DNA of 64,000 nucleotides from Chlorobiota bacterium (GCA_034670025.1 JAXMOE010000001.1:229889-293888); one strand, 5' to 3'; shown: positions 17,647-64,000, counted from the stretch's first letter. Program-made: numbers and translations. The notes: generated by a model from the sequence alone, not told the origin.

Positions 17647-18777
17647 TCAAAAGTTTTTCTTATTAAATTCTATTACTTCTTCAATTTCCTCTGCACTCAT
17701 TTTATTGATATAATGTTTTGATTGAGTTTGTATTGTATGACCAATTAATGAACGTACAACATTATCATTTAGAGTATAATCATTCATCATTTCATTTTCA
17801 ACTAACTTTCTTATTGCATGAAATTTTACTTCTTCTACGTTTTTTATTCCTAACATTTTCCTATAGTTATTAATATGCACTCCCATAATTCTTGACGTTT
17901 GGAGATTAAGCAAATTACTACTCTTAGAAAAACTCTTTTCATTAAACTCTAAGGCTTCTTTTAATAATGGTTCTAATTCAGGTCTAATGGAATAAGGGAA
18001 CTCTCTCCATGTATTATTTTTTCCGTCAATTAATAGTTTTTTAGGTTTGATGTGCCAAGGTTGCATCTTATATACTTCCCCAATCCGCATTCCTGTTATA
18101 CCAATAACTCTTAATACAAAATAAAGTTTAGTTGCTGACATTTTACTTTTGGGCTTACTACAATTGTCAATGTATTTACTTAACTCATGAACATATTTAT
18201 TTAGTTGATTCCTTGAACAAATTGTGAATTTGAATTTAGCTTTTTTAATTTTAATCCAAGGTTTAACAGGATTTGTTGTAATAATGTCAGATTCAATCCC
18301 AAATTTGAATATGGATCTCAATCGCTGAATAGAGGTGTTTATAGTTAAGTCCGAATAATTTTCTATCTCCTTCATTTCAAGAGCTCTTCTATTGACAAAT
18401 TTCGTGATTTCAACCATGTTGTCTAAATAAAAGTCATTATTATCGACAATCCTTTTGATAGAATTAAGAAAAGTTTCTTTAGTATTATCTTGTATGTGCT
18501 GAAACTTTAACTCTTTATATAGCAGAAACAGCTCAGAAAACTTATCAACTCTATTAGTATTAAATCCATTCTCACGATTGTAATATTCGCGAACTCTTTT
18601 ATCTAAGACTTGTATAGCAAAATCTTTGTTAGTTTTCTTCCAAGGTAAGTTCTTTATTGATTTCCTGTCACCAAATACATAGGTGTGGACATATCCATCC
18701 CTCTCAAAACAATAGACACCTTTTCTGTGATCAGGGTGATCCCATCGTCTTCCTTTCTTTTTTCTAGTCTTTCCCAT
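17647..18777 (-). CDS. tyrosine-type site-specific integrase
   Basis: 376 aa. C-terminal catalytic region (R...HAIRK...LIGHT...KHYI) typical of the phage integrase family, with an N-terminal SAM-like domain. Confidence 0.85.
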   Translation of the reverse strand: MGKTRKKKGRRWDHPDHRKGVYCFERDGYVHTYVFGDRKSIKNLPWKKTNKDFAIQVLDKRVREYYNRENGFNTNRVDKFSELFLLYKELKFQHIQDNTKETFLNSIKRIVDNNDFYLDNMVEITKFVNRRALEMKEIENYSDLTINTSIQRLRSIFKFGIESDIITTNPVKPWIKIKKAKFKFTICSRNQLNKYVHELSKYIDNCSKPKSKMSATKLYFVLRVIGITGMRIGEVYKMQPWHIKPKKLLIDGKNNTWREFPYSIRPELEPLLKEALEFNEKSFSKSSNLLNLQTSRIMGVHINNYRKMLGIKNVEEVKFHAIRKLVENEMMNDYTLNDNVVRSLIGHTIQTQSKHYINKMSAEEIEEVIEFNKKNF

Positions 18778-19174
18778 GGTTAGTTCTTTCTTTCAATTTT
18801 TCAGCAAATAATATTATAAATTCGTGTGACTCTTTCTCTTTTATTCGGGAGTTATCGGCTGTAAAAAAAGATAGTAATGTATTCAGTGTATCAGGGAACC
18901 AGTTGAAATCATTCAATAATTCTGGCATAGCAAAATGCCTCTCGATATATGAGAGAGTTGGGAATATAATAGAGCTATCTATCTTGCATTCCTCTAGAGT
19001 ATATAGTTCAAGTTGACAGAATTTATAGAATTTGTCAGCGTGTTCAAAAAGTGATGAGTACTCTATCAACACCTGATCAACATCCTTATCAGTGTTTGAC
19101 AGTACAATTCTTTCAGCAATTCTTAAACATCGAACTCTGAGTCTAATATTAATTTTGTTTTCTGACTGGAGCAA
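18764..19174 (-). CDS. hypothetical protein (between repressor and integrase, overlapping both)
   Basis: 136-aa ORF. The 14-nt and 26-nt overlaps suggest a co-transcribed leftward lysogeny operon. Confidence 0.45.
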   Translation of the reverse strand: MLQSENKINIRLRVRCLRIAERIVLSNTDKDVDQVLIEYSSLFEHADKFYKFCQLELYTLEECKIDSSIIFPTLSYIERHFAMPELLNDFNWFPDTLNTLLSFFTADNSRIKEKESHEFIILFAEKLKERTNHGKD

Positions 19175-19895
19175 AATCTTTAATCACTTTTTTAACAATA
19201 CCAAATATCTTAAAATCTTCTAAGTCACCAAGCTCTATATCTTCAGCATTCTTCGAATCTGACTTTAATAGGATGCTTCCATCCTTTTGATGACACAAGT
19301 GTTTCACAATTGGCATTCCATTTAAGGACCCCACAATTGTACAATCATAACTTGGTTTGCTGTTATAGACTTCAAATATAATTATATCACCCGAAGTCAG
19401 ACCAGCATCTTCCATTGAGTCACCATTTACATAGATTGCATCGTGTGAATCTTCATCTATATTCATACCTAAAGCTAACGGCATATATGTAGTTGGCAAA
19501 TCATTCAAATCAGTTAACGTCCCAGTCGCTGCACTTGCACTCATAATATGCAACTTAATATTTGCGAGCATCCCTTGAAATTGTTTTGGAACTCTATACA
19601 ACTCATCTTTCTTATCTGCAATGTAATCCTCATTTTTCTCTTTAGTCTTAATAGAACTTTTGCTAAGAGCCTCTTTATTAAATGGCTCACCTATTCCGTG
19701 TAAGTACCATTCAATATTAATGCCAGTTTCAGCCAATCTCCTTAATGCCGATTTGTTCTGATAAACTCTATCAGTATTAATGTATGTGTTTATAGTACCA
19801 GGTGAGACGCCTAGTATCTTTGCAAAAACAGTAGGGCTATGATAATGTTCATCAATGAAATCTCTTAGCCTTGATTGTGGTGTATCGCTCATCAT
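19149..19895 (-). CDS. CI/LexA-like phage repressor (N-terminal HTH plus C-terminal S24 peptidase domain)
   Basis: HTH (VFAKILGVSPGTINTYI). S24 signature (VNGDSMEDAGLTSGDIIIFE) with a downstream Lys. Divergent from the rightward early genes. Confidence 0.8.
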   Translation of the reverse strand: MMSDTPQSRLRDFIDEHYHSPTVFAKILGVSPGTINTYINTDRVYQNKSALRRLAETGINIEWYLHGIGEPFNKEALSKSSIKTKEKNEDYIADKKDELYRVPKQFQGMLANIKLHIMSASAATGTLTDLNDLPTTYMPLALGMNIDEDSHDAIYVNGDSMEDAGLTSGDIIIFEVYNSKPSYDCTIVGSLNGMPIVKHLCHQKDGSILLKSDSKNAEDIELGDLEDFKIFGIVKKVIKDFAPVRKQN

Positions 19896-19904
19896 TTACT
19901 CAAT

Positions 19905-20005
19905 TATTTAAGAAAAATATGAAAAATATTAAGAAAAGATTTGTTGTTCTTAAATAATTTATTAAATTCGTAAAGACAGAATAAGAATAAATAAGAAAAA
20001 CATAA
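19905..20005. promoter_or_regulatory. divergent lysogeny-switch control region with iterated TTAAGAA/TTCTTAA half-sites (operator array A)
   Basis: ATTATTTAAGAA at 19906-19917 is the exact reverse complement of TTCTTAAATAAT at 19948-19959. Extra TAAGAA copies at 19927, 19982 and 19992. Lies between the repressor gene and the first rightward ORF. Confidence 0.6.
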
Positions 20006-20030
20006 TCATTCACAATTAGAGGTCATACAA

Positions 20031-20252
20031 ATGCCAGCATATATAATCAAATCAGTTTCCATGGATAAAGATGCTTTTGATTACATCTGTGATGTGGTAG
20101 ATGGTAAAGATAAAGCTAGAAAAGACTTTTCAAAAGCTTTTAACTACACTATGCACAAACACATTGCAATGGAAAAAGAAATCATTGAACTTCGTAAGAA
20201 ACTATTACTGCAATCTGACGACCAGTCAGAAGTGAACTTAAGAAAAAATTAA
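20031..20252 (+). CDS. hypothetical early protein (Cro position)
   Basis: 73-aa ORF, the first rightward gene after the switch region. No recognisable HTH. Confidence 0.45.
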   Translation: MPAYIIKSVSMDKDAFDYICDVVDGKDKARKDFSKAFNYTMHKHIAMEKEIIELRKKLLLQSDDQSEVNLRKN

Positions 20253-20335
20253 GAAAATGCAAAGTAAAAAAACGAAGCATTTTAAGAACGGATAAGAAAG
20301 AGTTTAAGAATATATGAATATTGAAATAAGAAAAA
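20236..20335. promoter_or_regulatory. TTAAGAA repeat array (six copies in about 100 bp)
   Basis: (T)TAAGAA at 20238, 20249, 20282, 20293, 20304 and 20327, far above the chance expectation for this composition. Confidence 0.5.
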
Positions 20336-20520
20336 CGGAACGAAAGCAAAGAGCTATTAGACTTAATGATGCCGAAAAGGCTGACTTGCACACGGTAGCC
20401 AAGTCAATATTGGATTTAACGGAATCAGAAGCAGTAGCGATGATATTCACAGCAATAGCAGAAGAGTATCGAAAGAATAAAGACTCAGAAGAGATTAACA
20501 TAAAAATAAAAAAGGGATAG
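20314..20520 (+). CDS. hypothetical small protein
   Basis: 68 aa, co-directional with the early operon. An antisense ORF 20304..20564 also exists. Confidence 0.35.
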   Translation: MNIEIRKTERKQRAIRLNDAEKADLHTVAKSILDLTESEAVAMIFTAIAEEYRKNKDSEEINIKIKKG

Positions 20521-20601
20521 CTTTTGTAAGCTACCCCAAAGAGTTGCAATGAGTGGACGCTCATTTGCCATGTAAATTCACAACAAATATAAGGAGAAGT
20601 T

Positions 20602-20883
20602 ATGGAACTTCAAAATTATTTCCCCAGAGACGACATTAGAAGGAAAGCCGAAGATGTTGCAAAGTACATAGTAGAAGAGGTAAGACCTGACGAGAGGGAC
20701 GAGGCACTCTATTCAATTTTCTTAGAAGTAGAAAATGAATTGAGAAAAAAAGGAGATACATTCTCCTCTCAATTCACTTGTTCTGAACTTCTCGAAAAAC
20801 TATTTACAAAATCAAGAGACGGTCGCTATTTGGTAGCAGTTAAAGACGGCAGTTCAGTAAAACTACTAAGTCAAAATGCCTGA
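20602..20883 (+). CDS. hypothetical early protein
   Basis: 93-aa ORF in the early operon. Confidence 0.45.
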   Translation: MELQNYFPRDDIRRKAEDVAKYIVEEVRPDERDEALYSIFLEVENELRKKGDTFSSQFTCSELLEKLFTKSRDGRYLVAVKDGSSVKLLSQNA

Positions 20884-21145
20884 GATAATAGACAAATACA
20901 GACTTATGAGTATCACAGAAGCCTCAAAGGCCTTTAAGATATGTCGTGAGGAATTAACAAAATGTTTCCATAGAGGTCTCAAATACCAAAAGGTTGGTAC
21001 AAGGAAAAAAGTGTGCTGGCAGTGGTGGATTGACTACATGGAATCTGAAAATAATAATCAGCCAAAATCAAAACCTAAAAAAAGTAAGAAAAGTGGAATG
21101 TTCAAAATGGATAAGTCCACACGAGAATCAATTTATTCACTATAA
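20876..21145 (+). CDS. hypothetical protein, possible HTH/excisionase-like DNA-binding protein
   Basis: MSITEASKAFKICREELTK resembles HTH_17/AlpA-like helices. Basic C-terminus. Confidence 0.35.
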   Translation: MPEIIDKYRLMSITEASKAFKICREELTKCFHRGLKYQKVGTRKKVCWQWWIDYMESENNNQPKSKPKKSKKSGMFKMDKSTRESIYSL

Positions 21146-21159
21146 AGGAAATAAAAATT

Positions 21160-22188
21160 ATGCCATTAAATATAATAAAATCGAACGAAGAAATTAAAAT
21201 AAGTAGAGTAGTAGGATTAATCTACGGCTTTCCAGGGAGTGGTAAAACATCCACAGCAAACACATCTAATAATCCTGTCACACTTGACTTTGACAACGGT
21301 TCTCACCGTTCAGGATTTAGGAAAGACGTAATGCGTATAGATAGATGGGAAGACATCCAGTCAAATATGAAGTCATTTTTTAATGCAATAGAGACTTACG
21401 ACACAGTAGTTATTGATACAATCTCTACATGCTTAGATTATATAGGAGAATACTTAGTTAGAAATGACCCAAAACTCGGGAACAATAAACTAAGATATTA
21501 TGGAGCATTGAAAGATACATTTGGAAAGTTTGTACAGGCACTCAAAACAAACGGTAAAGATTTAATCTTTATTGCTCAAGTAAAAGAGAAAGAAGAAAAT
21601 GGTGTATCGGTAAAGAGACCTGATATAACTGGTGGTTCTTATGACATTGTTACTTCACTTTGTGACTTCATTGGCTACCAATACTATAAGGACAAAATCA
21701 GAGAATTAGATTTTGACCCAACTGAAGAATACATTGGTAAAAACCCTATGAGTTTCGATAAAGTAGATTTACCTAACTATGCTACTGAACCTGACTTTTT
21801 CTCACATAGAATAGAAGAAATTAAAGATAGGCTAGGGAATATCTCTCAAGAGCAAAAGGAAGCAGCAGACACGGTTAAAAATATAATATTGGAAATCAAA
21901 TCAGTTAAGACTGTAGATGATCTGAATACTGTTGTTAGTGATATCAAGAATGCTGGCCATCCAAAGCCGATTATTTCTCAAATTAAAAAATCAATATCTG
22001 ATAAGATGAATGAGATAGGTGCAAAACTCAATAAAGAATCTAATCTGTATGAGTTGGTTGAGGCTGATGCTAAAAAACCTACAAAAGCTAAAGAGAAAAA
22101 AGCACCAGAGCCAAGAGCCGAACATGCCGAAGAGGAAGTGCCTGCTAAGACGAATGAGACTAAGAAAGAAGAGGAGTCAGTATTTTGA
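21160..22188 (+). CDS. phage P-loop ATPase (Sak4/RecA-like AAA-family), K/E-rich C-terminal tail
   Basis: Walker A GFPGSGKTS near the N-terminus. 342 aa. Confidence 0.5.
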   Translation: MPLNIIKSNEEIKISRVVGLIYGFPGSGKTSTANTSNNPVTLDFDNGSHRSGFRKDVMRIDRWEDIQSNMKSFFNAIETYDTVVIDTISTCLDYIGEYLVRNDPKLGNNKLRYYGALKDTFGKFVQALKTNGKDLIFIAQVKEKEENGVSVKRPDITGGSYDIVTSLCDFIGYQYYKDKIRELDFDPTEEYIGKNPMSFDKVDLPNYATEPDFFSHRIEEIKDRLGNISQEQKEAADTVKNIILEIKSVKTVDDLNTVVSDIKNAGHPKPIISQIKKSISDKMNEIGAKLNKESNLYELVEADAKKPTKAKEKKAPEPRAEHAEEEVPAKTNETKKEEESVF

Positions 22189-22841
22189 TAAAGGTATCAG
22201 TATCAACACTCGACACATTTAATAAATATATCAATGGACATACCAATAGAGCAGGCAATTTAATGTACCCTGACGTAGAGAGTTTCCTTGAATATTTAGA
22301 TAGCGATTATGTATCTACTGCCAAAATGCAATATGGAACTGCTGTAGATGCAATCATTGAAAATCCTGATAAGTATTGGAATGCAAGGACTCGGGAATAT
22401 ATATATGATGGGATAGTAGTTCCTGAGGAATACATTTCTAAGATAACACCATTCTTTGATTATAACTTTCCATTTCAAGTAAGTGGTAAAACAGAATTTA
22501 AGATTGGCGACACAACGGTTATTCTTTCAGCAAGAGCAGACCAATTGCACGGACTTGACACAGTAGAATTTAAGACAGTCTGGAATGGTTATTCCTATGA
22601 AAAGTATGATAAATCAGTTCAATGGAAGTGCTACAACTTAATTTATGACACCCCTAGAGTGAGGTATGTAGTAGCTGATTCTAAAGTTAATTCAGGTGGA
22701 GATATAAAGCTTAAGAGTGTATATCAATTTTATCTCTATCGAGAATCAACACATTACTTAGAGATTAGCTCACTTTTATCACAGTTAGTTGACTTCCTAA
22801 TAACCCACAATCGAATCGAAAAAATGGAGAAAGCAGTATGA
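22185..22841 (+). CDS. hypothetical protein, possible PD-(D/E)XK-type nuclease
   Basis: ...SARADQL...VEFKT... arrangement compatible with a D...ExK motif. Located next to the ATPase as in Sak4 plus exonuclease modules. Confidence 0.3.
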   Translation: MIKVSVSTLDTFNKYINGHTNRAGNLMYPDVESFLEYLDSDYVSTAKMQYGTAVDAIIENPDKYWNARTREYIYDGIVVPEEYISKITPFFDYNFPFQVSGKTEFKIGDTTVILSARADQLHGLDTVEFKTVWNGYSYEKYDKSVQWKCYNLIYDTPRVRYVVADSKVNSGGDIKLKSVYQFYLYRESTHYLEISSLLSQLVDFLITHNRIEKMEKAV

Positions 22842-23131
22842 CAACATCAAACATTACAGAAGACCATAAATTCTTTCTTGTCACTTTTGGATGTGTTGCA
22901 TGCCCCGGTGCACAATACAGGGTAAGATATGGGAAAGTACAAACAGAGGTAGGGGATTATTTAGATATAAGACCTTATGACGAACCGAATAGAATATTCA
23001 GGATAAGAAAAAAAGATGCTTATGACACTTTGGACGAAGCGAAACATAAAGCATTATCATTAATAGAATCTAATACAGTAACGGCTAAATCAGTATTAGA
23101 CTCATCAGTACAATTATTAAAATTTAATTAA
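22838..23131 (+). CDS. hypothetical protein
   Basis: 97-aa ORF with 4-nt coupling overlaps to its neighbours. Confidence 0.4.
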   Translation: MTTSNITEDHKFFLVTFGCVACPGAQYRVRYGKVQTEVGDYLDIRPYDEPNRIFRIRKKDAYDTLDEAKHKALSLIESNTVTAKSVLDSSVQLLKFN

Positions 23132-23143
23132 GGAGAAATAGCC

Positions 23144-24421
23144 ATGCAAATTCAAAAAATTAACATTCGTTCCGTTTTAGGAATAGAAGAATTCGAACTA
23201 TTCCCAAACAAGGTAAATAAAATATCTGGTAAGAATGGGAAAGGAAAGACATCAATAATAGAAGCTATCAAAACCGCCCTCGGTGGTGGTAATGATGCTG
23301 AGTTAATTCACAAGGGAGAAGACGAGGGAGAGATAGTCATCATATTTGACAATAATATGCATCTGAAAAGGAGAATCCGTGGACCCAAAGCAGGTATATT
23401 CGAACTCCATGATTCAGATGGAAGAGAAATCAAATCACCTCAAAAACAACTAAACAAACTCTACGATGCTATAGCTGTTAATCCTGTAGAGTTTATCAAT
23501 GTAAAAGATAAGGAGAGAGTAGAATTATTACTCGAAGCACTTCCAGTTGACTTAAACTTAGAAGAATTGTTATCTTATATAATCAGTGAGATTGATTTAC
23601 TAGGAACAGCTAAGGATAAGCGTGAGAGCTTGCAAGATGTTTATGAAAGGAAATACACAAACGCACTTGAATTTATTGATGATATTCTGAAAGAATTATC
23701 TGACGAAAGGAGATATTTAAAGCGTTCACTAGACCAAGCAAAAGCAACAATAGAACCACTCTCACAATCAATAGTGGAGTTGGATATAGATGAGGATGAG
23801 GTCAAAGAAGAGATTGCACAAATCAATGAAAAACTTGAAAAAGCATCAGATCAATTCAATAGAAACTTATCTGAAATCCAAGAAGAGTATGATAAAGCAG
23901 TTGAAAAATTACGTGATAAAAAAGAAAAGTCAACAGACGAGCTTAAAGACAGATATAGCAACTTTAAGAGTGAGAAAACCAATGCAAGAACTTCCTTGCA
24001 GGAGAAGTTAGATACTTCGGCCGCACTCTTAAAAACAAAAGAAGAGCTAGAGAATCAAAAGAACAAAGCTAAGACTTTAGAAAAACAATGGGATGACCAA
24101 CAGACCTCTATTCAGAACTTAAGAGATTACAAATCCACTCTACTAAAATCAATACCAATTGATGGATTAGAACTCAACGACGGAGTAATATATAGAGGTG
24201 GAGTGCCTTATTCCAAACTAAATAAAGCACAACAGTTAGAAATAGCAATTGAGGTTGCTAAGCTTAGAACCAAAGACATCGGTGTTATATGTGTAGATGG
24301 AATTGAAATACTTGACTCCGACAGTCAAAAATTACTATTCGAGAAGTTTGAAAACTCTGGACTACAATTCTTCCTAACAGAAGTATCAGATAATGAAGAA
24401 TTAGAAATAACAACGGATTGA
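23144..24421 (+). CDS. SMC/SbcC/RecF-like ATPase (AAA_23-type), recombination/replication
   Basis: N-terminal Walker A GKNGKGKTS, long coiled-coil middle, C-terminal Walker B/D-loop (VICVDGIEILD). Confidence 0.55.
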   Translation: MQIQKINIRSVLGIEEFELFPNKVNKISGKNGKGKTSIIEAIKTALGGGNDAELIHKGEDEGEIVIIFDNNMHLKRRIRGPKAGIFELHDSDGREIKSPQKQLNKLYDAIAVNPVEFINVKDKERVELLLEALPVDLNLEELLSYIISEIDLLGTAKDKRESLQDVYERKYTNALEFIDDILKELSDERRYLKRSLDQAKATIEPLSQSIVELDIDEDEVKEEIAQINEKLEKASDQFNRNLSEIQEEYDKAVEKLRDKKEKSTDELKDRYSNFKSEKTNARTSLQEKLDTSAALLKTKEELENQKNKAKTLEKQWDDQQTSIQNLRDYKSTLLKSIPIDGLELNDGVIYRGGVPYSKLNKAQQLEIAIEVAKLRTKDIGVICVDGIEILDSDSQKLLFEKFENSGLQFFLTEVSDNEELEITTD

Positions 24422-24430
24422 GGAAGGATA

Positions 24431-24682: not shown

Positions 24683-24693
24683 GATAGATCTAT

Positions 24694-26006: not shown

Positions 26007-26010
26007 TACA

Positions 26011-26184: not shown

Positions 26185-26213
26185 TAATATTATTAATTAA
26201 TCTTTGAGTTAAA

Positions 26214-56915: not shown

Positions 56916-58220
56916 ATGGGAATACAGACGTTTCCAGAGAAAAATAGTAATAATGTTAGCGGTGCTTCAGGCGGTCTCCAAGGTACTTGGAACGCTTCAA
57001 CAAACGCACCTGCATTAGCAAATACTGATACAGGTAAAACTGGTGTAATGTATCAAGTTAGTGTTGGTGGAACTGTTGATTTTGGAGCTGGTAATATAAC
57101 ATTTGAAGCTAAAGATATTGTTGTGAATAATGGTGTTATCTGGGACAAGATAGATGCTACAGATGCAGTCCACAGTGTAAATGGGAATACTGGTGCTGTT
57201 AATTTAGATGCTGATGATATTGATGATACTTCGACTACAAAGAAGTTTACAACTACTACTGAAAAAAGTAAACTATCGGGCATTGCAGAAAATGCAACTG
57301 CAAACCCGAATGCCTTTGATAAAACATCTGACAATACCGATGACTTAACTGAAGGTGCATCTAATAAGTTTTTGTCAACAGCTGTTCAAAATCAAATTTC
57401 AAGTTTAGAATTGCAATCCGCTAATCAATTTGTTAGTGTTTGGAAAACTGATAACACAGGTTTTTCAAATGATGACCAAATAAAGCTACCTCTAATATCA
57501 GATGGTAACTACGACTTTTTAGTAGACTGGGGAGACGGTTCACAAGATAGAATTACAAGCTGGAATCAAGCTGAAGGAACTCACACATATTCCAGTATTG
57601 GAACATATACAGTAACCATAAGTGGAGAATGTGACGGTTGGGAGTTTGGTAATTCAGGAGCAAAAGATTTACAGAAAATTATTGAAATCAAGAATTGTGG
57701 ATGTCTGAATGTAAGTACTGACTTAGCATTTTATGGATGTAAAAAATTGATTTTTACCTCAAATGATGAACTAAAAGTTGTAGGGCTGACTAATGCAGGT
57801 GCAATGTTTAGACTTTGTGAGTTGACTGAAAAAGTTCCATACTTTGATTTTAGTAACATCACATCAGCACGATATATGATGTATGAGTGCAAAGCTCTAA
57901 CAAGTGTACCTTTTTACAATACAAGTTCCTTAGCAGATGCTACAGCAATGTTGGAACGTACTTATATGCTAACAGAAATCCCATTGTTTAATTTTAGTGC
58001 GTTGACAAATGGTACTAACTTCCTAAAGTCAACAGGAGCGAATGCTGGTGGTTTCTCGACACAAAACTATTCAGACTTATTAATTTATTGGGATACTCTT
58101 TCTCTTCAGAATGGTGTAAATATGTATGTCAATTCAGAATATAACAGTGACGGATCTACAGCTAAATCTAATATAGTATCAAATCATAGTTGGAACTTCA
58201 CAGATGCAGGATTAGAATAA
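56916..58220 (+). CDS. tail fibre protein with BspA-type leucine-rich repeat C-terminal domain
   Basis: N-terminal NLDADDIDDTSTTKKFTTTTEKSKLSGIAENATAN tail-fibre signature. C-terminal repeats (GCLNVSTDLAFYGCKKL..., FSNITSARYMMYECKALTSVP) of the BspA/DUF285 type. Confidence 0.5.
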   Translation: MGIQTFPEKNSNNVSGASGGLQGTWNASTNAPALANTDTGKTGVMYQVSVGGTVDFGAGNITFEAKDIVVNNGVIWDKIDATDAVHSVNGNTGAVNLDADDIDDTSTTKKFTTTTEKSKLSGIAENATANPNAFDKTSDNTDDLTEGASNKFLSTAVQNQISSLELQSANQFVSVWKTDNTGFSNDDQIKLPLISDGNYDFLVDWGDGSQDRITSWNQAEGTHTYSSIGTYTVTISGECDGWEFGNSGAKDLQKIIEIKNCGCLNVSTDLAFYGCKKLIFTSNDELKVVGLTNAGAMFRLCELTEKVPYFDFSNITSARYMMYECKALTSVPFYNTSSLADATAMLERTYMLTEIPLFNFSALTNGTNFLKSTGANAGGFSTQNYSDLLIYWDTLSLQNGVNMYVNSEYNSDGSTAKSNIVSNHSWNFTDAGLE

Positions 58221-58687
58221 TGAATACTATTAAAGCAAAAGAAAAAACCTATTGGATATTAGACGATAAACACGGCATACTTGAAAAAGGGCAAGAGTTA
58301 GCGAGTAAAACAAAGCCGTTTTCAACCACTAATAAAAACGAATGGCTAAAAAAGTTAGGTGTTAGTTCTGAAAAAGAATTAGAGGACAACGAAGCAAGTG
58401 AGTTAGAAGATTATAAAATTCAGAGTTTAAAAGATAGATTGATTGACAAAGTCAAGAGCGTAGTATCAAAGCGACTTTCAGCTACTGATTACATGGTAAT
58501 AAGACACTTAGGACAAAAAGCATTAACAGACAAAGGTAAATTAGCAAAGACTAAACTATCCGATACCGAATATGATAACTTAGAACTTGTAAGAGAAGCA
58601 TTAAGAGATTGGAGCAACGAAAAAGAAGCTGAAATTAACAGCAAAACAAAGATTGAAGAATTAAAGAAAATTAAAGTGGAATACTAA
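58190..58687 (+). CDS. hypothetical protein
   Basis: 165-aa ORF. Confidence 0.4.
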   Translation: MELHRCRIRIMNTIKAKEKTYWILDDKHGILEKGQELASKTKPFSTTNKNEWLKKLGVSSEKELEDNEASELEDYKIQSLKDRLIDKVKSVVSKRLSATDYMVIRHLGQKALTDKGKLAKTKLSDTEYDNLELVREALRDWSNEKEAEINSKTKIEELKKIKVEY

Positions 58688-58688
58688 A

Positions 58689-59063
58689 ATGTTAGAATTT
58701 GATTTAAGTGAGGCAATACCAACAGCAGAGTGGAATAGCTACGGTACATTCTCAAAGAGAAGTCCAAAGCTCACTTCTCTCCAAATCCAATGGCACGGAT
58801 TAGCAGGAACACTCAATGGAACTTTGCAGTTAGAAATATCAAATAAGGTATCAAGAGGTAGCGGTGAAGAAGACGAGTTTGTCACTCAAATCCCATTGAA
58901 AGATGAAAATGGAGACCCATTGACATTGGATTCAGCAAGCAATAAAGATAATTGCAAGATAGTAATGATAGAAGTACCACACGCAGGATGGAGACTAATA
59001 GTTGACAAAGGTGGTATTACAGCAGGAACATTAAAAGCATTAATGATAGAACCAAGTGAGTAA
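58689..59063 (+). CDS. hypothetical protein
   Basis: 124-aa ORF. Confidence 0.4.
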   Translation: MLEFDLSEAIPTAEWNSYGTFSKRSPKLTSLQIQWHGLAGTLNGTLQLEISNKVSRGSGEEDEFVTQIPLKDENGDPLTLDSASNKDNCKIVMIEVPHAGWRLIVDKGGITAGTLKALMIEPSE

Positions 59064-60312
59064 CACAAGATACATAAAGGGAGTTGATGTTTCTTCTACT
59101 GATGTAGAGGATGAAGTATTGATTCCATTTAATAGTTTGGGTGGGGCAACTCCACGTAACCAACTGTTAAACTCAAATTTCGATATTTGGCAAAGGTGTT
59201 CAAGTAGAATTAGTATCACTAATAGAAGTAGAACAGATGACGTTGCAACTGTAGTAACTGAATTTGAACACGGGTACGACACAGGAGATAGAGTTCAAAT
59301 ATCGCACATGAGTGACACCGAATACAACCAAACTGATGTGTTAGTAACAGTCGTTGACGAAACAACATTTACTTATGAATGTGCAGGTGTGGACGAGTCA
59401 ACAACAGCTGAGTCTACAGGGCATACAACGTTACTGACAAGGTTGTCATTAACAGTTGAAGATCAAGCTTTTATAGCCGATAGGTGGGTTGGATTAGTTA
59501 GTTCAGGTCAATTAATAGTTAGTTATGACGATGGAGTCAATATAGAACAAACTAACACCGCTTATTCAGGTTTAGTACAGGTGATTCCGAGTAGGTATAG
59601 AACAGGTTCTACATTCTCAATATCGTTAAAAGCCAAAGCAAGTACAGGAACTCCGAAAGTTAGAATTGCATTATTAGAATGGGACGGCACAACAGATAAT
59701 ATTGATTTCACAGTAGTTGACACTTGGAGTTCAGACCCTACATTAGAGACTGATTGGAGCTATGCGGGGAAAAGCGACCAAGTAACGATGACATCGAGTT
59801 ATCAAACTATAAGCAAAGAGAATATAACAGCGACTGGAAATAATATTGCTTTTGTTGTATTCACAGAGAATGTTGGAGATACTGGGAAACTACAAATCAA
59901 AGAATGTCAACTTATTGAAGGTGATTCTATTGCAGACTATGTAAGCCCGATAGTTGAATTAGAAATAAACGAATGTAGAAAATTCTACCAAAAAAGTTAT
60001 GAATACAGCACACCTGCAGGAGTAATTTCTGAAAAAGGGAAGCTGGAATTAGCAACATCATTTGGTGTATCAAACGGCAATATAGTCGGAACTGTTTTTA
60101 TTGATAGAATGTACAGACAGCACTCAGTTACTTTCTATAGCTCCCAAGAGCCACCAGAAGAGAACCATTGGGTAGTGTCAACAGGAGTAAATGTAGATAT
60201 AACTGCCTCTAATGAGGGTGAAGGTAGCTTTGCTATTGTAAACGATAGTGGCTTTTCTATATCAACTTCCAGTTTAGGTGGACATTACGTTTGTGAAATT
60301 GACTCTATATAA
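59056..60312 (+). CDS. hypothetical tail/receptor-binding protein
   Basis: 418-aa ORF. Confidence 0.45.
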   Translation: MSNTRYIKGVDVSSTDVEDEVLIPFNSLGGATPRNQLLNSNFDIWQRCSSRISITNRSRTDDVATVVTEFEHGYDTGDRVQISHMSDTEYNQTDVLVTVVDETTFTYECAGVDESTTAESTGHTTLLTRLSLTVEDQAFIADRWVGLVSSGQLIVSYDDGVNIEQTNTAYSGLVQVIPSRYRTGSTFSISLKAKASTGTPKVRIALLEWDGTTDNIDFTVVDTWSSDPTLETDWSYAGKSDQVTMTSSYQTISKENITATGNNIAFVVFTENVGDTGKLQIKECQLIEGDSIADYVSPIVELEINECRKFYQKSYEYSTPAGVISEKGKLELATSFGVSNGNIVGTVFIDRMYRQHSVTFYSSQEPPEENHWVVSTGVNVDITASNEGEGSFAIVNDSGFSISTSSLGGHYVCEIDSI

Positions 60313-60358
60313 AATAGAAATACAAATTACTTAAAATTAATTAAAAGAGGTAGCTAAA

Positions 60359-61330
60359 ATGGCTCAACAAATAGCAGCAAAAAGAACATTAGTATCAGGT
60401 ATTCCAGCGGCATGGTTGCTTGGTGTAATATTCAATTCATTCAGCGGAAAAGTAGGAACTGGTGGTATTGACGACACAGTTACAACTATCCCATTGTCAG
60501 ACGATTCAGGTATATTAAAAGATGGCTCTACAATCCAAATAGGTTCGGAGCAAATAACAGTTGGAGCTTATGATTCTGACAACAATCAACTAACAGGATG
60601 TACGCGTGGTGCAAACAGTACTACTGCGGCCGCACACTCAGTTGGTGATGGTATTGTTGTTCTTTCAGGTGGTGTCCAGATAGCGGAAGCTGACTTTAAC
60701 ACAGATGAATCAAATGATTATCCGCGTTTTGGGTTTGATAACTTAGGTAAAGGCTCAGATTTCACAGCATTCTTACCATCTAATGCGGAATCAGGTGGTG
60801 GAGAGAATGTAGAAATAACATTAGCGGATAATACAATAATGTCACACCCTAAAAATAGTAAGAAATACAAGTTAACAGATGGAACTGAAATCACATCTGT
60901 TGAAAGTGATTCTAACAATACCAACTTAGGTAAAGTGAAATTAGTGGTAACTGGTGGTGATGTAGAATCAGCAACACTAACAGCTTTTGAGAAAAAGTTA
61001 ATTGATATTCCGAACCAAGTATTCCTGATTGCTGTTCCAAGAGGTTGGAATGCAAATTCAGAAGGTACAACTGTTGATGGTTGGGTATATATGACGGCAA
61101 AAAGAAGCACAGATTACACAGGTGTCCAAGATACTGGCGATGTTACTTTAGAATTCAATTCTTACAAGTTACCCGGAACAGAAGCTGAACATCAGTCAGC
61201 ATTTACTGGCATTTCTTGGGGTGCATTGACAACTACTGGTTTGAAGCAAAACTTCACTCCACCAACATTGACTAATGATGAAGCAACGAAATTAGGAAAA
61301 GGCGAAATTGTGCTAAAGGCAGCAGCATAA
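60359..61330 (+). CDS. hypothetical tail protein
   Basis: 323-aa ORF, G/T/S-rich. Confidence 0.45.
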   Translation: MAQQIAAKRTLVSGIPAAWLLGVIFNSFSGKVGTGGIDDTVTTIPLSDDSGILKDGSTIQIGSEQITVGAYDSDNNQLTGCTRGANSTTAAAHSVGDGIVVLSGGVQIAEADFNTDESNDYPRFGFDNLGKGSDFTAFLPSNAESGGGENVEITLADNTIMSHPKNSKKYKLTDGTEITSVESDSNNTNLGKVKLVVTGGDVESATLTAFEKKLIDIPNQVFLIAVPRGWNANSEGTTVDGWVYMTAKRSTDYTGVQDTGDVTLEFNSYKLPGTEAEHQSAFTGISWGALTTTGLKQNFTPPTLTNDEATKLGKGEIVLKAAA

Positions 61331-61414
61331 TAAGGAAGTATAGCTCCTAGCTCAATCCAGATAGCAGGCAGAAATTATAAACCCTGTCTGCTATTTTTAT
61401 ATAAAGGAAATTAG

Positions 61415-63925
61415 ATGATATTTGTCCAAGAAGCCATATACCAAGACCATATTTTCGGTAAGCAAGTTGTAAGATTTGTTGTTGCCGATCAATATGATAA
61501 TCTTTTCAAAACCGATGCTCAAATAGTGTCGGATTTGGGTATTAGTAGTGAGAATTTCAGAACAAGTATTTTTAACTTAGGAAATACTAAAGAGTCTTTG
61601 AAAAAAGAAGAAGGTTCTTTTTCAATGAGTGAGCTTGGGTTTAAGGTTACTACATCTGCAATTCAAACTACTACTGATAAAAGAGCTTTTTATTTCTGCC
61701 TCCATGCCAATAACTTTAGAAAGCATAGATATTGTGCAACCTTCCTTTATACTTTAGGTTCTACATTCGATGAATCAGATAGAACCTTTACAGGTAAAAT
61801 TACCTCTACAATTTCAGGGAGTGAACACGATTGGATAGGGGCATTGCCTTGGGATTCAGAAATTGATGCTGATATGGAAGTTGATTTCAAAGCATTGCAA
61901 TTTGATTTATCGGTTATGTCGCAATGTTTTTTAGACAAGCCTATCTTATTACCAGATGGGACGGAAACGGATTCTATCTATGACAGACTAACAGAAATAG
62001 ACGGTGGGGACGGAGACATTGAGAGTAACTTCAAGCACAAGCCTTGTTATATTCACCAAATAGGGGATGATGACTTTATAATGTACACAACTCCAATGGG
62101 AACTATCTACGATACTCTAATGATGCTCTTAGATAAGACATCTGAAGTTCTAACCGAAATGATTGGGACGACATTCTCATTTAGTATAGCGGAAACAGAT
62201 TTAGGGTTCAGCGTTGGGACTGCTTATTATGAATTAGAGAGTAAATTCTATGTGAAAAATGTTAAAACAGATGGTACTCTTAGAAAGGTATTCATAGCAC
62301 CACCTGAATCATTAAATTATAAATACAATGCTTATATCAATAGTTCACTATTGAAGCCTGTCTTCGGAACTGGTACAGATATTCACACAGATCACGCTAC
62401 TATGCCTGAAGCTTACAGATTCCAAGAGCCCAATTCATTCCTTGCTACTGGTAACATCACCTCTCTTTTAGCTGAGATTGCTCGCTCATTGGGTTGTGTA
62501 GTCATAACTAGGTTTAATTCGGGAACTGAAATAGAAATTGAATTTGTATCCAAAAACTCACTTTCAATTTCATCTAACGTTTATATGGTAGGGGTCAACA
62601 GTTCCAGTTTCGACTCCTCATCTATTGCACTAGAAAACAGTACTAAATATTACGCTGAAGCAAATAGGTTAATACTAGAAGGTGGCCCCGACTCAGAAGT
62701 TGCTGGTGATGAAAGGAACACTTATAAATACCAACTATTTGATAAAAGTTCTCCTGACTACTATGAAAACTTCACCCCGACACCTGCATTATATGATTTC
62801 AAAAATAATATCAAAACAGACTCATTAGTTGAATATAAGAGATTATTGCTATCTACCTCTTGGTCTATACTTCAGCAAAGGGCCGTAGGCAAGAGTGTTA
62901 CTTCAATTCCTATCAATATCGGGGTTCTTTCTTTCACTCCATATCATAATATTCCATATTCCGAATATTACTCTCCTAGTGAATTCAGTAATAGGGGACA
63001 TCGGAATTACCTACATTCGGGTATATACGTCAAGACTACCCCACAAGATATTCTTCAGAGTACTCTACTTGGTGGCTCAACTGAAGTATGGGCTCCTGCT
63101 ACTAATATTGTAATTAATAGGAGCGGTGATAATCTTCGATATGAAACTCTATCTGACTACATTACAAGCCTTACAGCTAGTGATAAGTTATACTATGAGA
63201 ATACGCGTAAGGTTACTACTCCATCTTGGAACGGATTCTCGGCTAACTCAGATGGTAGTAGTCCAATTTGGGAAAATTTAAAGATTGGTAAAAAGATACC
63301 ACTAAAAATTAAAACTTTAGAATATGATTCTGTTGAAGATGAGTGGAATGAGGTTTGGTCTCCTGTTTCAACTTGGTCGATAGTTAGTATTGAGCGTTCA
63401 ATGAACAAACCTGAAACTGTAATAGAGTTAGTTGACGAATCTATATCAAGTATCTATGGTAATTATGATTCAGGCAAAGGAACATCACAAGTACAAGGGA
63501 CAGTTAATGAAAGTCCATTAAGAAATGGTACTGTTGGTGGAGAAATAAGTGATACTTGGATATTCGAATGTAATGAGACGATTAAAGCTGACTATGCTAT
63601 TGCACTACGAGATGATGGCAAGATAGAAAAATTCCAACCTCTAAAGAGTGAACACTACAATAAGTTTATAGGAATAGCAAAAGAAGACGGAATCAATGGT
63701 AATGTAATTAGAGTTCAAACGGGTGGAATTGTTGTATTAGAAAATTCAACGATCGATGTAAACAAATCTGTATTTGTCAGATATGCAACTGGTACAAATG
63801 CTAACATTTCACAAACAATCTTAGAAAGTAAAACAGTAGATGAGGATATGATATTTAGACTATGTAGGAAGCCACTCAATGATAAAGCATTCAGATTAGA
63901 GCCGGAGTATATGATTTATGGCTAA
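61415..63925 (+). CDS. large tail/baseplate structural protein
   Basis: 836-aa ORF. Confidence 0.5.
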   Translation: MIFVQEAIYQDHIFGKQVVRFVVADQYDNLFKTDAQIVSDLGISSENFRTSIFNLGNTKESLKKEEGSFSMSELGFKVTTSAIQTTTDKRAFYFCLHANNFRKHRYCATFLYTLGSTFDESDRTFTGKITSTISGSEHDWIGALPWDSEIDADMEVDFKALQFDLSVMSQCFLDKPILLPDGTETDSIYDRLTEIDGGDGDIESNFKHKPCYIHQIGDDDFIMYTTPMGTIYDTLMMLLDKTSEVLTEMIGTTFSFSIAETDLGFSVGTAYYELESKFYVKNVKTDGTLRKVFIAPPESLNYKYNAYINSSLLKPVFGTGTDIHTDHATMPEAYRFQEPNSFLATGNITSLLAEIARSLGCVVITRFNSGTEIEIEFVSKNSLSISSNVYMVGVNSSSFDSSSIALENSTKYYAEANRLILEGGPDSEVAGDERNTYKYQLFDKSSPDYYENFTPTPALYDFKNNIKTDSLVEYKRLLLSTSWSILQQRAVGKSVTSIPINIGVLSFTPYHNIPYSEYYSPSEFSNRGHRNYLHSGIYVKTTPQDILQSTLLGGSTEVWAPATNIVINRSGDNLRYETLSDYITSLTASDKLYYENTRKVTTPSWNGFSANSDGSSPIWENLKIGKKIPLKIKTLEYDSVEDEWNEVWSPVSTWSIVSIERSMNKPETVIELVDESISSIYGNYDSGKGTSQVQGTVNESPLRNGTVGGEISDTWIFECNETIKADYAIALRDDGKIEKFQPLKSEHYNKFIGIAKEDGINGNVIRVQTGGIVVLENSTIDVNKSVFVRYATGTNANISQTILESKTVDEDMIFRLCRKPLNDKAFRLEPEYMIYG

Positions 63926-64000
63926 TCACATTTATTTATATTATACCAACTCATATCCACGACCAGATGATGGTGATTTAATTGGTGCTGCACCAGGTGG
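63918..64000 (+). CDS. hypothetical protein, 3' end outside window
   Basis: ATG at 63918 overlapping the preceding stop. Reading frame open to the window edge. Confidence 0.3.
   Translation, partial: MANHIYLYYTNSYPRPDDGDLIGAAPG

What the first reader, a model, noticed from the sequence alone, without database searches (positions are those of the whole stretch)
17647..64000. Mosaic temperate phage (over 46 kb) inserted next to the pnp region, not at a tRNA
The region after the epimerase gene is a complete-looking prophage, but its architecture is unusual. It has a tyrosine integrase and an S24 repressor, whereas the head module (terminase, DUF935 portal, F-like NCRC protein, G-like protein) and a Mor-family activator are Mu-like. 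The head genes are split between the two strands. No tRNA or obvious att repeat is present at the left junction (17512-17646). This combination is not a textbook lambdoid or Mu-like layout.
Basis: partly seen in the sequence, partly recalled or inferred. Interest (0 to 1): 0.5.

Follow-up and report, generated by a model that had tools for sequence, protein, structure and literature searches.

The report
Integrase prophage with split Mu-like head
This is a real but fairly ordinary prophage of an uncultured Ignavibacteriota bacterium: it belongs to an undescribed phage lineage already present in metagenomes, sits at a fixed non-tRNA site, runs about 7 kb past the window, and has lost the replication genes its relatives carry.

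Summary
From about 17545 to the window end lies a prophage. It has a tyrosine integrase, an S24 repressor, a Sak4/SMC-like early operon and a weak Mor-like activator. It has Mu-type TerL, portal, F and G genes on the minus strand, and a protease, lambda-type D/E capsid genes, Mu gp36/gp37, an endolysin and tail genes on the plus strand.

It is one element, not two. Metagenomic relatives (55-91% aa identity) show the same gene order, including the divergent late operons.

Relatives define the ends:
- The tape-measure gene is the last phage gene. It is followed by a PTS-EIIA (ptsN-like) gene.
- One contig joins the tape-measure gene to the integrase, which is an attP junction.
- Three prophage-free genomes place the epimerase next to ptsN.

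The crossover core is TTGGATA (17545-17551). It lies in the epimerase/ptsN intergenic region, with no tRNA. Three prophage lineages use this site. The prophage should end near 71 kb, for a total of about 53.5 kb.

It is not "complete-looking". The SNF2 helicase is cut at residue 280. The replication initiator and DnaB module of relatives is replaced by 3.3 kb of outer-membrane and secreted-protein genes. No transposase is present.

Verdict: new member of a known kind, low to moderate interest.

The parts
17545..17551 (.). attL crossover core TTGGATA. The sequence up to 17556 is equally compatible with host or phage origin.
   Evidence: In one relative's prophage, attL (L023) and attR (L021) share exactly TTGGATA, flanked by host sequence on one side and phage sequence on the other. 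The attB of prophage-free L008-L010 carries the same core. The extended core pattern occurs once in the window.
17552..17646 (.). Phage P' arm of attL, with a CGTGC-type motif at 17621-17631 that is a candidate integrase arm site.
   Evidence: This stretch is homologous to the P' arms of L025 and L023. Pairs of CGTGCAA repeats spaced 11 bp apart lie next to the int stop codon and again just after the tape-measure stop codon in relatives. Arm-site function is inferred.
17647..18777 (-). Tyrosine integrase.
   Evidence: PF00589, 4e-9. The conserved active-site residues (Arg, His-x-x-Arg, His, Tyr) are visible in the translation. Homologues of 60-74% identity were found; the three looked up (P0001, P0002, P0005) each lie at the edge of a related prophage.
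18764..19174 (-). Conserved 136-aa gene between the integrase and the repressor; function unknown.
   Evidence: 65-66% identical in all relatives at the same position. No family hit.
19149..19895 (-). LexA/CI-type repressor with an S24 autopeptidase domain.
   Evidence: PF00717, 3e-13. The GDSM serine motif and a downstream lysine are visible.
19896..20030 (.). Divergent switch region with a 24-nt inverted repeat (19894-19917 / 19944-19967); candidate operators.
   Evidence: the repeat finder. Operator function is inferred.
20031..25534 (+). Early operon. It holds small genes 20031-20252, 20314-20520, 20602-20883 and 20876-21145; Sak4-like AAA_24 21160-22188; 22185-22841; 22838-23131; SMC-like AAA_23 23144-24421; 24431-24682; and the N-terminal 280 residues of an SNF2/ResIII helicase from 24694.
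   Evidence: Pfam and PHROG 124 Sak4-like, 1.7e-37. The operon is colinear with relatives. Helicase homology to the 470-aa relatives stops at residue 280, which is window 25533/25534.
25535..28814 (+). Replacement segment: the out-of-family tail of the helicase ORF, a 116-aa ORF, an outer-membrane beta-barrel protein 26214-26840, a 205-aa signal-peptide protein 26951-27568, and a 363-aa protein 27658-28749.
   Evidence: blastn against contig2 gives sharp breakpoints: window 24694-25534 = contig2 6772-7612, and window 28815-30820 = contig2 13025-15051. The displaced 5.4 kb in relatives encodes the helicase C-terminus, a Lin1244_N initiator, DnaB or a Toprim-DnaB primase-helicase, and an HSDR_N nuclease. 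The outer-membrane protein matches OMP_b-brl_2 at 7e-15.
28815..31414 (+). Conserved middle cluster: 29087-29575, 29585-30013, Mor-like late activator 30010-30312, 30356-30658 and 30953-31414.
   Evidence: 55-71% identical and colinear in contig2 13297-16534. The Mor-like protein scores Pfam 7e-4 below cutoff and PHROG 836 1.9e-6. A PDB sequence search gave no Mor hit.
31738..38729 (.). Variable cargo region with low GC (0.28-0.29). Genes: 260-aa ORF 31738-32520(+); LamG lipoprotein 32645-33391(-); hybrid PAS histidine kinase/receiver 33591-35579(-); small HTH 35682-35906(-) with upstream repeats at 35923-35996; lipoprotein 36662-37198(+); DUF6978 37454-37936(+); DUF1828 37905-38729(+).
   Evidence: Pfam, composition, PADLOC PDC-M24B 6.8e-21. 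Only 36662-37198 and a fragment at 35706-35885 have homologues in relatives. The rest is specific to this copy.
38979..51169 (-). Leftward late operon, listed in transcription order: ParB 50480-51169, cupin-like 49762-50508, PAPS-reductase-like 48939-49811, PAPS_reduct+DUF3440 47803-48939, ParB 47291-47806, TerS 46675-47376, TerL 45276-46712, Mu-type portal 43837-45276, Mu F 42482-43837, G-like 41934-42482, membrane protein 41068-41847, and a secreted fibre-like protein 38979-40874.
   Evidence: Pfam and PHROGs. The stretch 41934-51169 is colinear with 54-91% identity in L001-L003. The last two genes are specific to this copy.
51170..51344 (.). Intergenic region between the two divergent late operons; a candidate bidirectional late control region.
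   Evidence: 77% mean column identity across four phages, with repeated CAGTCTGCATTG-like units. The sigma-70 scan found nothing above chance. Function is inferred.
51345..64000 (+). Rightward late operon, cut by the window end. Genes: protease/scaffold 51345-52445; decoration D 52479-52850; capsid E 52852-53910; Mu gp36 53914-54345; gp37 54342-54773; membrane protein 54770-55540; endolysin 55506-55943; 55940-56569; fibre-like 56916-58220; 58190-58687; 58689-59063; fibre-like 59056-60312; tail-tube-fold protein 60359-61330; 836-aa protein 61415-63925; and the first 27 codons of the next gene from 63918.
   Evidence: Pfam and PHROGs. The operon is colinear in L007, L021 and L022. The AF2 model of 60359-61330 has pLDDT 90 and hits siphophage tail-tube proteins. 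63918-63998 matches the start of the 149-aa gene of L007.

Best explanation
The region is the left ~46.5 kb of a prophage of about 53.5 kb. The phage is a long-tailed, probably non-contractile temperate phage, and the host is an Ignavibacteriota-type bacterium.

Integration. A tyrosine integrase recombined the phage attP with a 7-bp core (TTGGATA). The core lies in the short divergent intergenic region between an NAD-dependent epimerase gene and a PTS-EIIA (ptsN-like) gene, downstream of the nusA-infB-pnp cluster. The integrase therefore lies at the left end. The tape-measure gene, about 7 kb beyond the window, lies at the right end next to ptsN.

Regulation and gene expression. Lysogeny is held by a LexA-like S24 repressor, transcribed divergently from an early operon that encodes Sak4-type recombination functions. 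A small Mor-like activator in a conserved middle cluster is the candidate switch for late expression. Late expression starts from one conserved intergenic region and runs in two directions. Leftwards it covers the ParB/PAPS-reductase genes, the terminase, the Mu-type portal, F and G. Rightwards it covers the protease, the lambda-type D/E capsid, connectors, lysis and tail genes. This layout is a lineage trait.

State of this copy. It has suffered a replacement that truncates its SNF2 helicase and removes the replication initiator and replicative helicase found in relatives. It also carries copy-specific cargo: an outer-membrane protein, secreted proteins, a hybrid histidine kinase and a candidate defence pair. 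It is therefore probably replication-impaired, that is, cryptic or dependent on host or helper functions.

What is shown and what is inferred. Shown: gene content, colinearity with relatives, the ends and the core, the missing module. Inferred: SOS inducibility, Mor-driven bidirectional late transcription, arm-site function, loss of viability.
For: One element:
- The early genes and the structural genes lie on the same two IMG/VR contigs, in the same order as in the window.

Ends:
- In L021, a 1.03-Mb host contig, the tape-measure gene is followed after 156 bp by a PTS_EIIA_2 gene (8.8e-40) and by a 1191-aa ORF read from its sequence as 2-oxoglutarate dehydrogenase E1.
- Prophage-free genomes L008-L010 show the synteny infB...pnp...acylase-epimerase. 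In them the same ptsN-like gene lies directly beside the epimerase.
- In L022 the tape-measure stop codon is followed after 222 bp by the integrase gene, which is the attP junction.

Same site in relatives:
- L023/L024 and L025/L026 show integrase | ~160 bp | epimerase | penicillin amidase | DJ-1 | pnp.

Core:
- attL, attR and attB comparisons define TTGGATA.
- The core pattern is unique in the window.

Not a transposable phage:
- All ORFs of at least 80 aa in the region except two (25656-26006, 56699-56947) were scanned against Pfam. No DDE transposase or MuB-like protein was found.

Missing replication module:
-.

Tail type:
- A tube-fold protein.
- A 1791-aa tape-measure protein in relatives.
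- No sheath hit in PHROGs or Pfam.

Host:
- Record titles read 'Chlorobiota bacterium', 'Ignavibacteriota bacterium' and 'Candidatus Kapaibacterium'.
Against: - The right end of this particular copy was not seen. Its position and its attR are extrapolated from relatives.
- The source contig, an NCBI contig of 1,014,554 bp that holds a 100% identical 836-aa protein, could not be retrieved.
- Replication impairment rests on comparison only. The unannotated genes in 25656-28749 or elsewhere could supply a non-homologous function, or the phage could rely on host replication. The structural genes that have counterparts in relatives align over their full length without visible frameshifts.
- The Mor assignment is weak.
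- The tube-fold protein could be a distal-tail protein rather than the major tail protein. TM-scores were low (0.2-0.3) despite high probabilities.
Confidence: 0.85

Rival explanations
1. Two adjacent elements. An integrase-bearing island or satellite (17.6 to ~31.5 kb) lies next to a separate integrase-less structural cluster (39 to 64+ kb), such as a tailocin, a GTA-like element or a second prophage. Host genes, including the histidine kinase, would lie in between.
For: There is a low-GC stretch at 31-39 kb. It holds a hybrid histidine kinase, lipoproteins and genes on both strands. No homologues of most of these genes are found in relatives.
Against: Both modules lie on the same contigs, in the same order, in at least three relatives. 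attR follows the tape-measure gene and attL follows the integrase in the same host locus. L022 joins the tape-measure gene directly to the integrase. The Mor cluster and gene 36662 on either side of the cargo are conserved phage genes. The att core occurs only once in the window.
Confidence: 0.04
2. A Mu-like transposable phage that inserted at random near pnp.
For: The portal, F, G, gp36 and gp37 are Mu-type. The nearest cultured relatives of the portal are the transposable phages BcepMu and phiE255, at 33% identity. A Mor-like protein is present.
Against: No MuA/rve or MuB-type protein appears in the Pfam scans, which covered all but two of the ORFs of at least 80 aa. A tyrosine integrase lies at the element's edge. 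Three prophage lineages use the identical insertion site with the same 7-bp core. An attP junction exists. The capsid is lambda E/D-type.
Confidence: 0.01
3. A fully functional, inducible prophage. The segment after the helicase breakpoint would simply be an alternative module, and the phage would replicate with host factors or with unrecognised genes.
For: The integrase, repressor, terminase, portal, capsid, lysis and tail genes are full length compared with relatives. The ORF after the breakpoint ends in a tidy 4-bp overlap with the next gene. Middle regions of this lineage are highly variable. Headful-type terminases tolerate shorter genomes (general knowledge).
Against: All four relatives with this region carry a 470-aa helicase or its same N-terminal part. 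The window ORF loses the Helicase_C half at a sharp DNA breakpoint. Relatives follow the helicase with a Lin1244_N initiator plus DnaB or a primase-helicase. In the window that position holds a beta-barrel outer-membrane protein and signal-peptide proteins, with no replication-family hit.
Confidence: 0.35

Closest known systems
Uncultivated viral genomes IMGVR_UViG_3300026516_000184 (62.2 kb; untrimmed form in JGI contig Ga0209573_1000008), IMGVR_UViG_3300037565_000147 (59.1 kb) and JGI contig Ga0163101_100031 (60.6 kb)
   Same: Same gene order from the integrase and repressor through the early operon, the Mor cluster, the leftward packaging/portal operon and the rightward capsid/tail operon. 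Amino-acid identity is 54-91%. The first one, the only one of the three whose host flanks were seen, sits at the same epimerase|ptsN integration site.
   Different: The relatives are 6-9 kb longer. They keep the full 470-aa helicase and an initiator plus DnaB or primase-helicase module. They lack the histidine kinase, LamG, outer-membrane protein and fibre-like 38979-40874 cargo. None of them is described in the literature that I could search.
[quoted passage not shown]
   Same: The portal (PF06074), F (PF04233), G-like, gp36 and gp37 are shared, as is the order TerS-TerL-portal-F-G. A Mor-like small activator is present. The best cultured portal hits are BcepMu and phiE255, at 33% identity.
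   Different: There is no transposase, and integration is site-specific through a tyrosine integrase. The capsid and decoration proteins are lambda E/D-type rather than Mu gpT-type. The portal block is inverted relative to the capsid block. The members of the group described in PMC5488378 still carry transposases.
Lambdoid temperate phages (lambda)
   Same: A tyrosine integrase lies next to an att site that has a short core and candidate arm sites. The repressor is an S24 self-cleaving type, divergent from an early operon. The head uses decoration protein D and capsid protein E families.
   Different: The portal and head-morphogenesis genes are Mu-type. The late genes lie in two divergent operons. 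The tape-measure gene is the last gene before attP. The recombination and replication genes are unrelated (Sak4, SMC-like, SNF2).
Stenotrophomonas phage StM171 (MZ611865) and similar cultured siphophages with Mu-type portals
   Same: No transposase is annotated in this genome, yet it has TerL, a Mu-type portal and Mu F. The packaging block is separated from the protease-capsid block by reverse-strand genes. The portal is 25% identical.
   Different: In StM171 both blocks are on the same strand, and no integrase is annotated. The relationship is only distant.

Membership tests
Site-specific (integrase-type) temperate tailed phage | A tyrosine recombinase gene at the edge of the element | tested here: met
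   PF00589, 4e-9 at 17647-18777. It lies 95 bp from the att core. Catalytic residues are visible in the translation.
Site-specific (integrase-type) temperate tailed phage | An att core duplicated at both ends, with an empty attB in related genomes | tested here: inconclusive
   This is met for a 72%-identity relative: attL in L023, attR in L021 and attB in L008-L010 all carry TTGGATA. For the window copy only attL is visible, because attR lies beyond 64000.
Site-specific (integrase-type) temperate tailed phage | A circular or attP form that joins the two prophage ends | tested here: met
   L022 shows tape-measure stop, then 222 bp, then the integrase. This is a relative, not this copy. A tandem prophage would give the same junction.
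Site-specific (integrase-type) temperate tailed phage | A complete set of virion and lysis genes | tested here: inconclusive
   TerS, TerL, portal, protease, capsid, connectors, endolysin, fibres and a tube-fold protein are present. The tape-measure gene and three neighbouring genes are expected outside the window.
Mu-like transposable phage | A DDE transposase (MuA) and a MuB-type ATPase | tested here: not met
   No such family appears in the Pfam scans, which covered all but two of the ORFs of at least 80 aa between 17647 and 63925.
Mu-like transposable phage | Near-random insertion sites | tested here: not met
   The same intergenic site and core are used in the window and in two further prophage lineages.
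Mu-like transposable phage | A Mu-type head module (portal gp29, F gp30, G, gp36, gp37) | tested here: met
   PF06074 8e-69, PF04233 1e-14, PF05069 4e-8, PF07030 2.5e-15, PF09646 1.7e-7.
Mu-like transposable phage | A Mor/C-family late activator | tested here: inconclusive
   Pfam Mor scores 7e-4, or 20 bits against a 24.9-bit cutoff. PHROG 836 scores 1.9e-6. No PDB sequence match to Mor was found.
Lambdoid phage | Lambda-type capsid genes (D and E) | tested here: met
   PF02924 6e-14 and PF03864 4e-35.
Lambdoid phage | A lambda-like single-direction late operon and a lambda-type portal | tested here: not met
   The late genes are divergent from 51170-51344, and the portal is Mu-type.
Defective (cryptic) prophage | Loss or truncation of genes that intact relatives carry | tested here: met
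   The helicase is cut at residue 280 of 470. The initiator and the DnaB/primase-helicase module are absent, with sharp breakpoints at 25534 and 28815. Whether this abolishes growth is not testable here.
Phage satellite (PICI-like) | A small integrase/repressor/replication island without its own virion genes | tested here: not met
   The integrase module is contiguous with a full structural module inside one att-bounded element.

The most novel reading that the evidence does not exclude
The prophage represents an undescribed genus- or family-level lineage of Ignavibacteriota/Kapaibacteria siphophages. In this lineage the morphogenesis gene order, usually highly conserved, is stably rearranged: the packaging/portal block is inverted against the capsid block, and fibre-like, tube-fold and large tail genes come before a terminal tape-measure gene. 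In addition, this copy would be a prophage on its way to domestication. Its replication module has been exchanged for envelope and signalling cargo (an outer-membrane protein, a hybrid histidine kinase and a LamG lipoprotein) under a prophage-borne HTH regulator.
Probability: 0.3. Interest if true: 0.4.

Novelty: new member of a known kind. Interest (0 to 1): 0.27.

Why it matters
The searches here found no cultured phage (INPHARED) and no paper describing a prophage of this kind for Ignavibacteriota/Kapaibacteria. This locus and its metagenomic relatives therefore give a defined phage lineage for the phylum, with a mapped attB, a 7-bp core and candidate arm sites. That is useful for prophage annotation and host assignment of IMG/VR contigs. 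It may also help in building integration tools for a phylum with few genetic tools.

The conserved bidirectional late region and the inverted packaging block are a small, clean example that morphogenesis gene order can be stably rearranged. Nothing here challenges current understanding of temperate phages.

Tried and rejected
- Megablast of both halves against 50,697 phage records found no match. There is no close cultured relative.
- Exact look-ups of the 836-aa protein to extend the window failed. A 100% identical protein exists on an NCBI contig of 1,014,554 bp. The cluster look-up gave no accession.
- A genome-contig scan with the 836-aa protein found nothing. The second scan, with the epimerase, gave the prophage-free relatives instead.
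- The hypothesis of two elements or a satellite was considered because of the low-GC, host-like stretch at 31-39 kb. It was rejected on colinearity in relatives and on the att and attP junctions.
- Mu-like transposition was rejected (no transposase, fixed site).
- I first placed the end of host homology at 17569. Comparison of attL and attR from one relative showed that 17552-17569 is phage sequence that merely resembles attB. The core was corrected to 17545-17551.
- The AlphaFold model of the 836-aa protein had pLDDT 45, and its Foldseek hits were not significant. It was discarded.
- PDB sequence searches for the Mor-like, 323-aa, 836-aa and 179-aa proteins gave nothing.
- The BFVD fold search for the 323-aa protein returned mostly unnamed viral structural proteins and added little.
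- The sigma-70 promoter scan of the late intergenic region was at chance level.
- Literature searches for Ignavibacteria prophages and for Mu-like heads combined with integrases found nothing specific. [quoted passage not shown]

Full report
**What is in the window.**

The window has about 33-37% GC and no tRNA gene. Positions 1-17481 are chromosomal. By ORF sizes and order they appear to be nusA, infB, rbfA, truB, ribF and rpsO. Then come pnp (10327-12552), a SAM_HAT gene, a DJ-1/PfpI gene, a penicillin-amidase-like gene (14101-16494) and an NAD-dependent epimerase (16495-17481/17511, minus strand). The evidence is ORFs, Pfam, and Pfam labels on the syntenic genes of relatives.

Everything from about 17545 to the window end is phage:
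- Tyrosine integrase 17647-18777(-).
- A conserved 136-aa gene.
- S24 repressor 19149-19895(-).
- A rightward early operon with a Sak4-like AAA_24 protein, an SMC-like AAA_23 protein and an SNF2/ResIII helicase.
- A conserved cluster of five small genes (29087-31414) that includes a weak Mor-like activator (30010-30312).
- A variable, low-GC cargo stretch (31.7-38.7 kb).
- A leftward operon: ParB, cupin, two PAPS-reductase-like genes, ParB, TerS, TerL, Mu-type portal, Mu F, G-like, a membrane protein and a secreted fibre-like protein (51169 down to 38979).
- A rightward operon from 51345: protease/scaffold, lambda-type decoration protein D, lambda-type capsid protein E, Mu gp36, gp37, a membrane protein, endolysin, fibre-like proteins, a 323-aa protein and an 836-aa protein.

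Two qualifications apply. The Mor call is weak: Pfam 7e-4 is below cutoff, while PHROG 836 gives 1.9e-6. The capsid genes are lambda-type rather than Mu-type.

**One element or two?**

The low-GC stretch holds a hybrid histidine kinase and lipoproteins, so I tested whether the integrase module and the structural module are separate elements. They are not.

Scans of IMG/VR with the portal, the AAA_24 protein, the 836-aa protein and the 162-aa middle gene all land on the same two contigs (62.2 and 59.1 kb) plus fragments. tblastn of all window proteins shows the same order and orientation throughout, at 54-91% identity. This includes the divergent arrangement of the packaging/portal operon and the capsid/tail operon.

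The 'split head module' is therefore a stable trait of a phage lineage, not a local rearrangement. The 175-bp region between the two operons (51170-51344) is 77% conserved across four phages and contains repeated CAGTCTGCATTG-like units. I take it, by inference, to be the bidirectional late control region. The Mor-like protein is the candidate activator.

**The ends and the integration site.**

A genome scan with the epimerase found three prophage-free relatives. Their record titles read 'Chlorobiota bacterium' and 'Ignavibacteriota bacterium', and their epimerases are 75-90% identical. They share the synteny infB...pnp...acylase-epimerase. In them the epimerase is followed directly, in divergent orientation, by a 152-aa gene and a ~1190-aa ORF. 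No tRNA is nearby.

A metagenome scan with the tape-measure protein of one relative gave two decisive loci.
- In L021, a 1.03-Mb host contig, the 1791-aa tape-measure gene is the last phage gene. After 156 bp comes the same 152-aa gene, which is PTS_EIIA_2 (8.8e-40). After that comes a 1191-aa ORF, read from its sequence as 2-oxoglutarate dehydrogenase E1.
- In L022 the tape-measure stop codon is followed after 222 bp by the integrase, the 136-aa gene, the repressor and the early operon. This is the attP junction of a circular, concatemeric or tandem form.

Look-ups of integrase homologues showed that this relative (P0002) and a further lineage (P0001, from several samples) have integrase | ~160 bp | epimerase | amidase | DJ-1 | pnp. 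A 60%-identity integrase in a Candidatus Kapaibacterium contig sits at a different site.

Aligning attL (L023) and attR (L021) of one prophage with attB (L009) gives the following:
- Host left arm: ...CTATAAGA
- Shared core: TTGGATA
- Host right arm: AATTGTAAAAAAAAAATGACACC-ATG (ptsN start)

The phage arms resemble attB for another dozen bases on each side.

In the window the core is at 17545-17551. It lies 63 bp upstream of the epimerase start. Positions 17552-17646 form the phage P' arm. The extended core pattern occurs once in the window, so attR is not inside it.

Pairs of CGTGCAA repeats 11 bp apart lie next to the integrase stop codon and just after the tape-measure stop codon in relatives. 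The window keeps AAGAAACGTGC at 17621-17631. These are candidate arm-type integrase sites. This is an inference, consistent with weak Int_N hits on the relatives' integrases.

The window ends 27 codons into the homologue of the 149-aa gene. In relatives, 7.0 kb follow the 836-aa gene. The prophage should therefore end near 71.1 kb and measure about 53.5 kb.

Integration splits the ~95-bp divergent promoter region of the epimerase and ptsN. ptsN ends up downstream of, and co-oriented with, the phage tail operon. Any effect on expression is inference.

**Is it intact?**

No, at least not like its relatives. The helicase is 470 aa in each of the three relatives where the gene is complete. A fourth contig ends inside the gene but matches the same N-terminal part. 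The window ORF is 321 aa, and homology stops at residue 280.

At DNA level, window 24694-25534 matches contig2 6772-7612, and homology resumes at window 28815 = contig2 13025. The displaced 5.4 kb in relatives encodes the helicase C-terminal half, Lin1244_N-type initiator proteins, DnaB (or a Toprim-DnaB primase-helicase in the other relative) and an HSDR_N nuclease.

In the window that position holds 3.3 kb instead. It encodes a coiled-coil ORF, an outer-membrane beta-barrel protein, a signal-peptide protein and a 363-aa protein with no replication-family hit.

The second variable region (31.7-41.9 kb) is also copy-specific. It holds a leftward block of an HTH gene, a PAS/HisKA/HATPase/receiver hybrid kinase and a LamG lipoprotein. 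Two 22-nt repeats lie upstream of the HTH gene, and a third copy lies at 26921. It also holds a DUF6978/DUF1828 pair that matches the PADLOC candidate PDC-M24B, and a secreted fibre-like protein with an internal 222-nt duplication.

All the structural genes that have counterparts in relatives are full length. I therefore rate 'replication-impaired or cryptic prophage' at about 0.55-0.6, and 'still fully functional' at about 0.35.

**Virion type.**

No sheath family was detected. The 323-aa protein (60359-61330) is 85-88% identical in relatives. It gave an AlphaFold model with pLDDT 90. Its best PDB matches are siphophage tail-tube and tail-tip proteins: T1 tube 9l0f_G at 3.8e-4, FCWL1, Chi, YSD1, T5 pb6 and lambda V. 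TM-scores were low because of an extra N-terminal domain that is widespread in phage fibres.

Together with a 1791-aa tape-measure protein, this indicates a long non-contractile tail. The 836-aa protein could not be modelled (pLDDT 45).

The gene order is fibre-like genes, then the tube-fold protein, then the 836-aa protein, then 149/179/177-aa proteins, then the tape-measure gene as the last gene before attP. This order is unusual, and I could not assign the roles securely.

**Comparison with known systems.**

No nucleotide-level relative exists among 50,697 phage records. The portal's best cultured relatives are the transposable phages BcepMu and phiE255, at 33% identity. The capsid protein's best relatives are Vibrio phages, at 24%.

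The element works like a lambda-type integrating temperate phage (integrase, att core, S24 repressor) with a Mu-type packaging/portal set. It is not a member of the transposable Mu-like phages. Transposase and MuB are absent, and insertion is site-specific.

Mu-type portals in non-transposing siphophages are already known among isolates. In Stenotrophomonas phage StM171 the TerL-portal-F block is even separated from the protease-capsid block by reverse-strand genes. The published 'Mu-like head phage group' concerns phages that carry transposases. I found no paper that describes this lineage or any Ignavibacteria prophage of this kind.

**Verdict.**

The region is a genuine, single, site-specifically integrated prophage of an undescribed but metagenomically recurrent lineage. 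It is truncated by the window and probably replication-impaired.

It is a new member of a known kind. Interest is low to moderate (0.27). Its main value is as a well-delimited reference prophage and att site for Ignavibacteriota.

Noticed in passing
window 35682-35996 and 26921-26943: A 74-aa HTH ORF on the minus strand gives a PHROG repressor hit. It aligns only to residues 9-68 of a 178-aa protein in relative L001 and ends soon after. Two 22-nt repeats (ATTnnCGTAAAAGTTCArTGAG) lie just upstream of it, and a third copy lies upstream of the 26951 gene. They may be operators that link the two cargo regions.
   Followed up: partly
window 32645-35579 (minus strand): A hybrid PAS-HisKA-HATPase-receiver histidine kinase and a LamG-domain lipoprotein lie inside the prophage, downstream of the HTH gene. 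They are absent from all relatives examined. A sensor kinase as prophage cargo is uncommon.
   Followed up: partly
window 37454-38729: An overlapping DUF6978 + DUF1828 gene pair. The DUF1828 protein matches the PADLOC candidate defence family PDC-M24B (6.8e-21). Both proteins have PHROG families of unknown function.
   Followed up: partly
window 47291-51169 (minus strand): Five genes head the packaging operon: ParB, cupin-like, PAPS-reductase-like, PAPS_reduct+DUF3440 and ParB. From memory, the last pair resembles IbrA/IbrB. The block is conserved in every relative. It could be a DNA-modification or packaging-accessory module, but its function is unknown.
   Followed up: no
window 51170-51344: The noncoding region between the divergent late operons is 77% conserved across four phages. 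It holds three or so CAGTCTGCATTG-like repeats and an invariant TTGAACTGTAGCAAT block next to the ParB start codon.
   Followed up: partly
window 38979-40874: A secreted 631-aa fibre-like protein, specific to this copy, lies at the end of the leftward operon. It has an internal 222-nt duplication (39458-39679 / 39983-40204, 79% identical).
   Followed up: no
L006 13695-14075 (relative contig1): A stand-alone 126-aa Mu F-like domain, 40% identical to part of the window's F protein, lies in the relative's middle region. It is far from that phage's own F gene.
   Followed up: no
window 12593-13369: The host SAM_HAT (SAM hydroxide adenosyltransferase family) gene between pnp and DJ-1 is only 45% identical in the closest relative L008. 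No homologue was detected in L009, and no such gene is called in L023, although the flanking genes are 78-96% identical. This is a variable spot in otherwise conserved synteny.
   Followed up: no
L028/L029 6001-7128: A 60%-identity integrase, with a related repressor and an early gene, lies in a Candidatus Kapaibacterium contig. It sits next to a glycosyltransferase gene rather than the epimerase. More distant members of the lineage therefore use another attB.
   Followed up: partly
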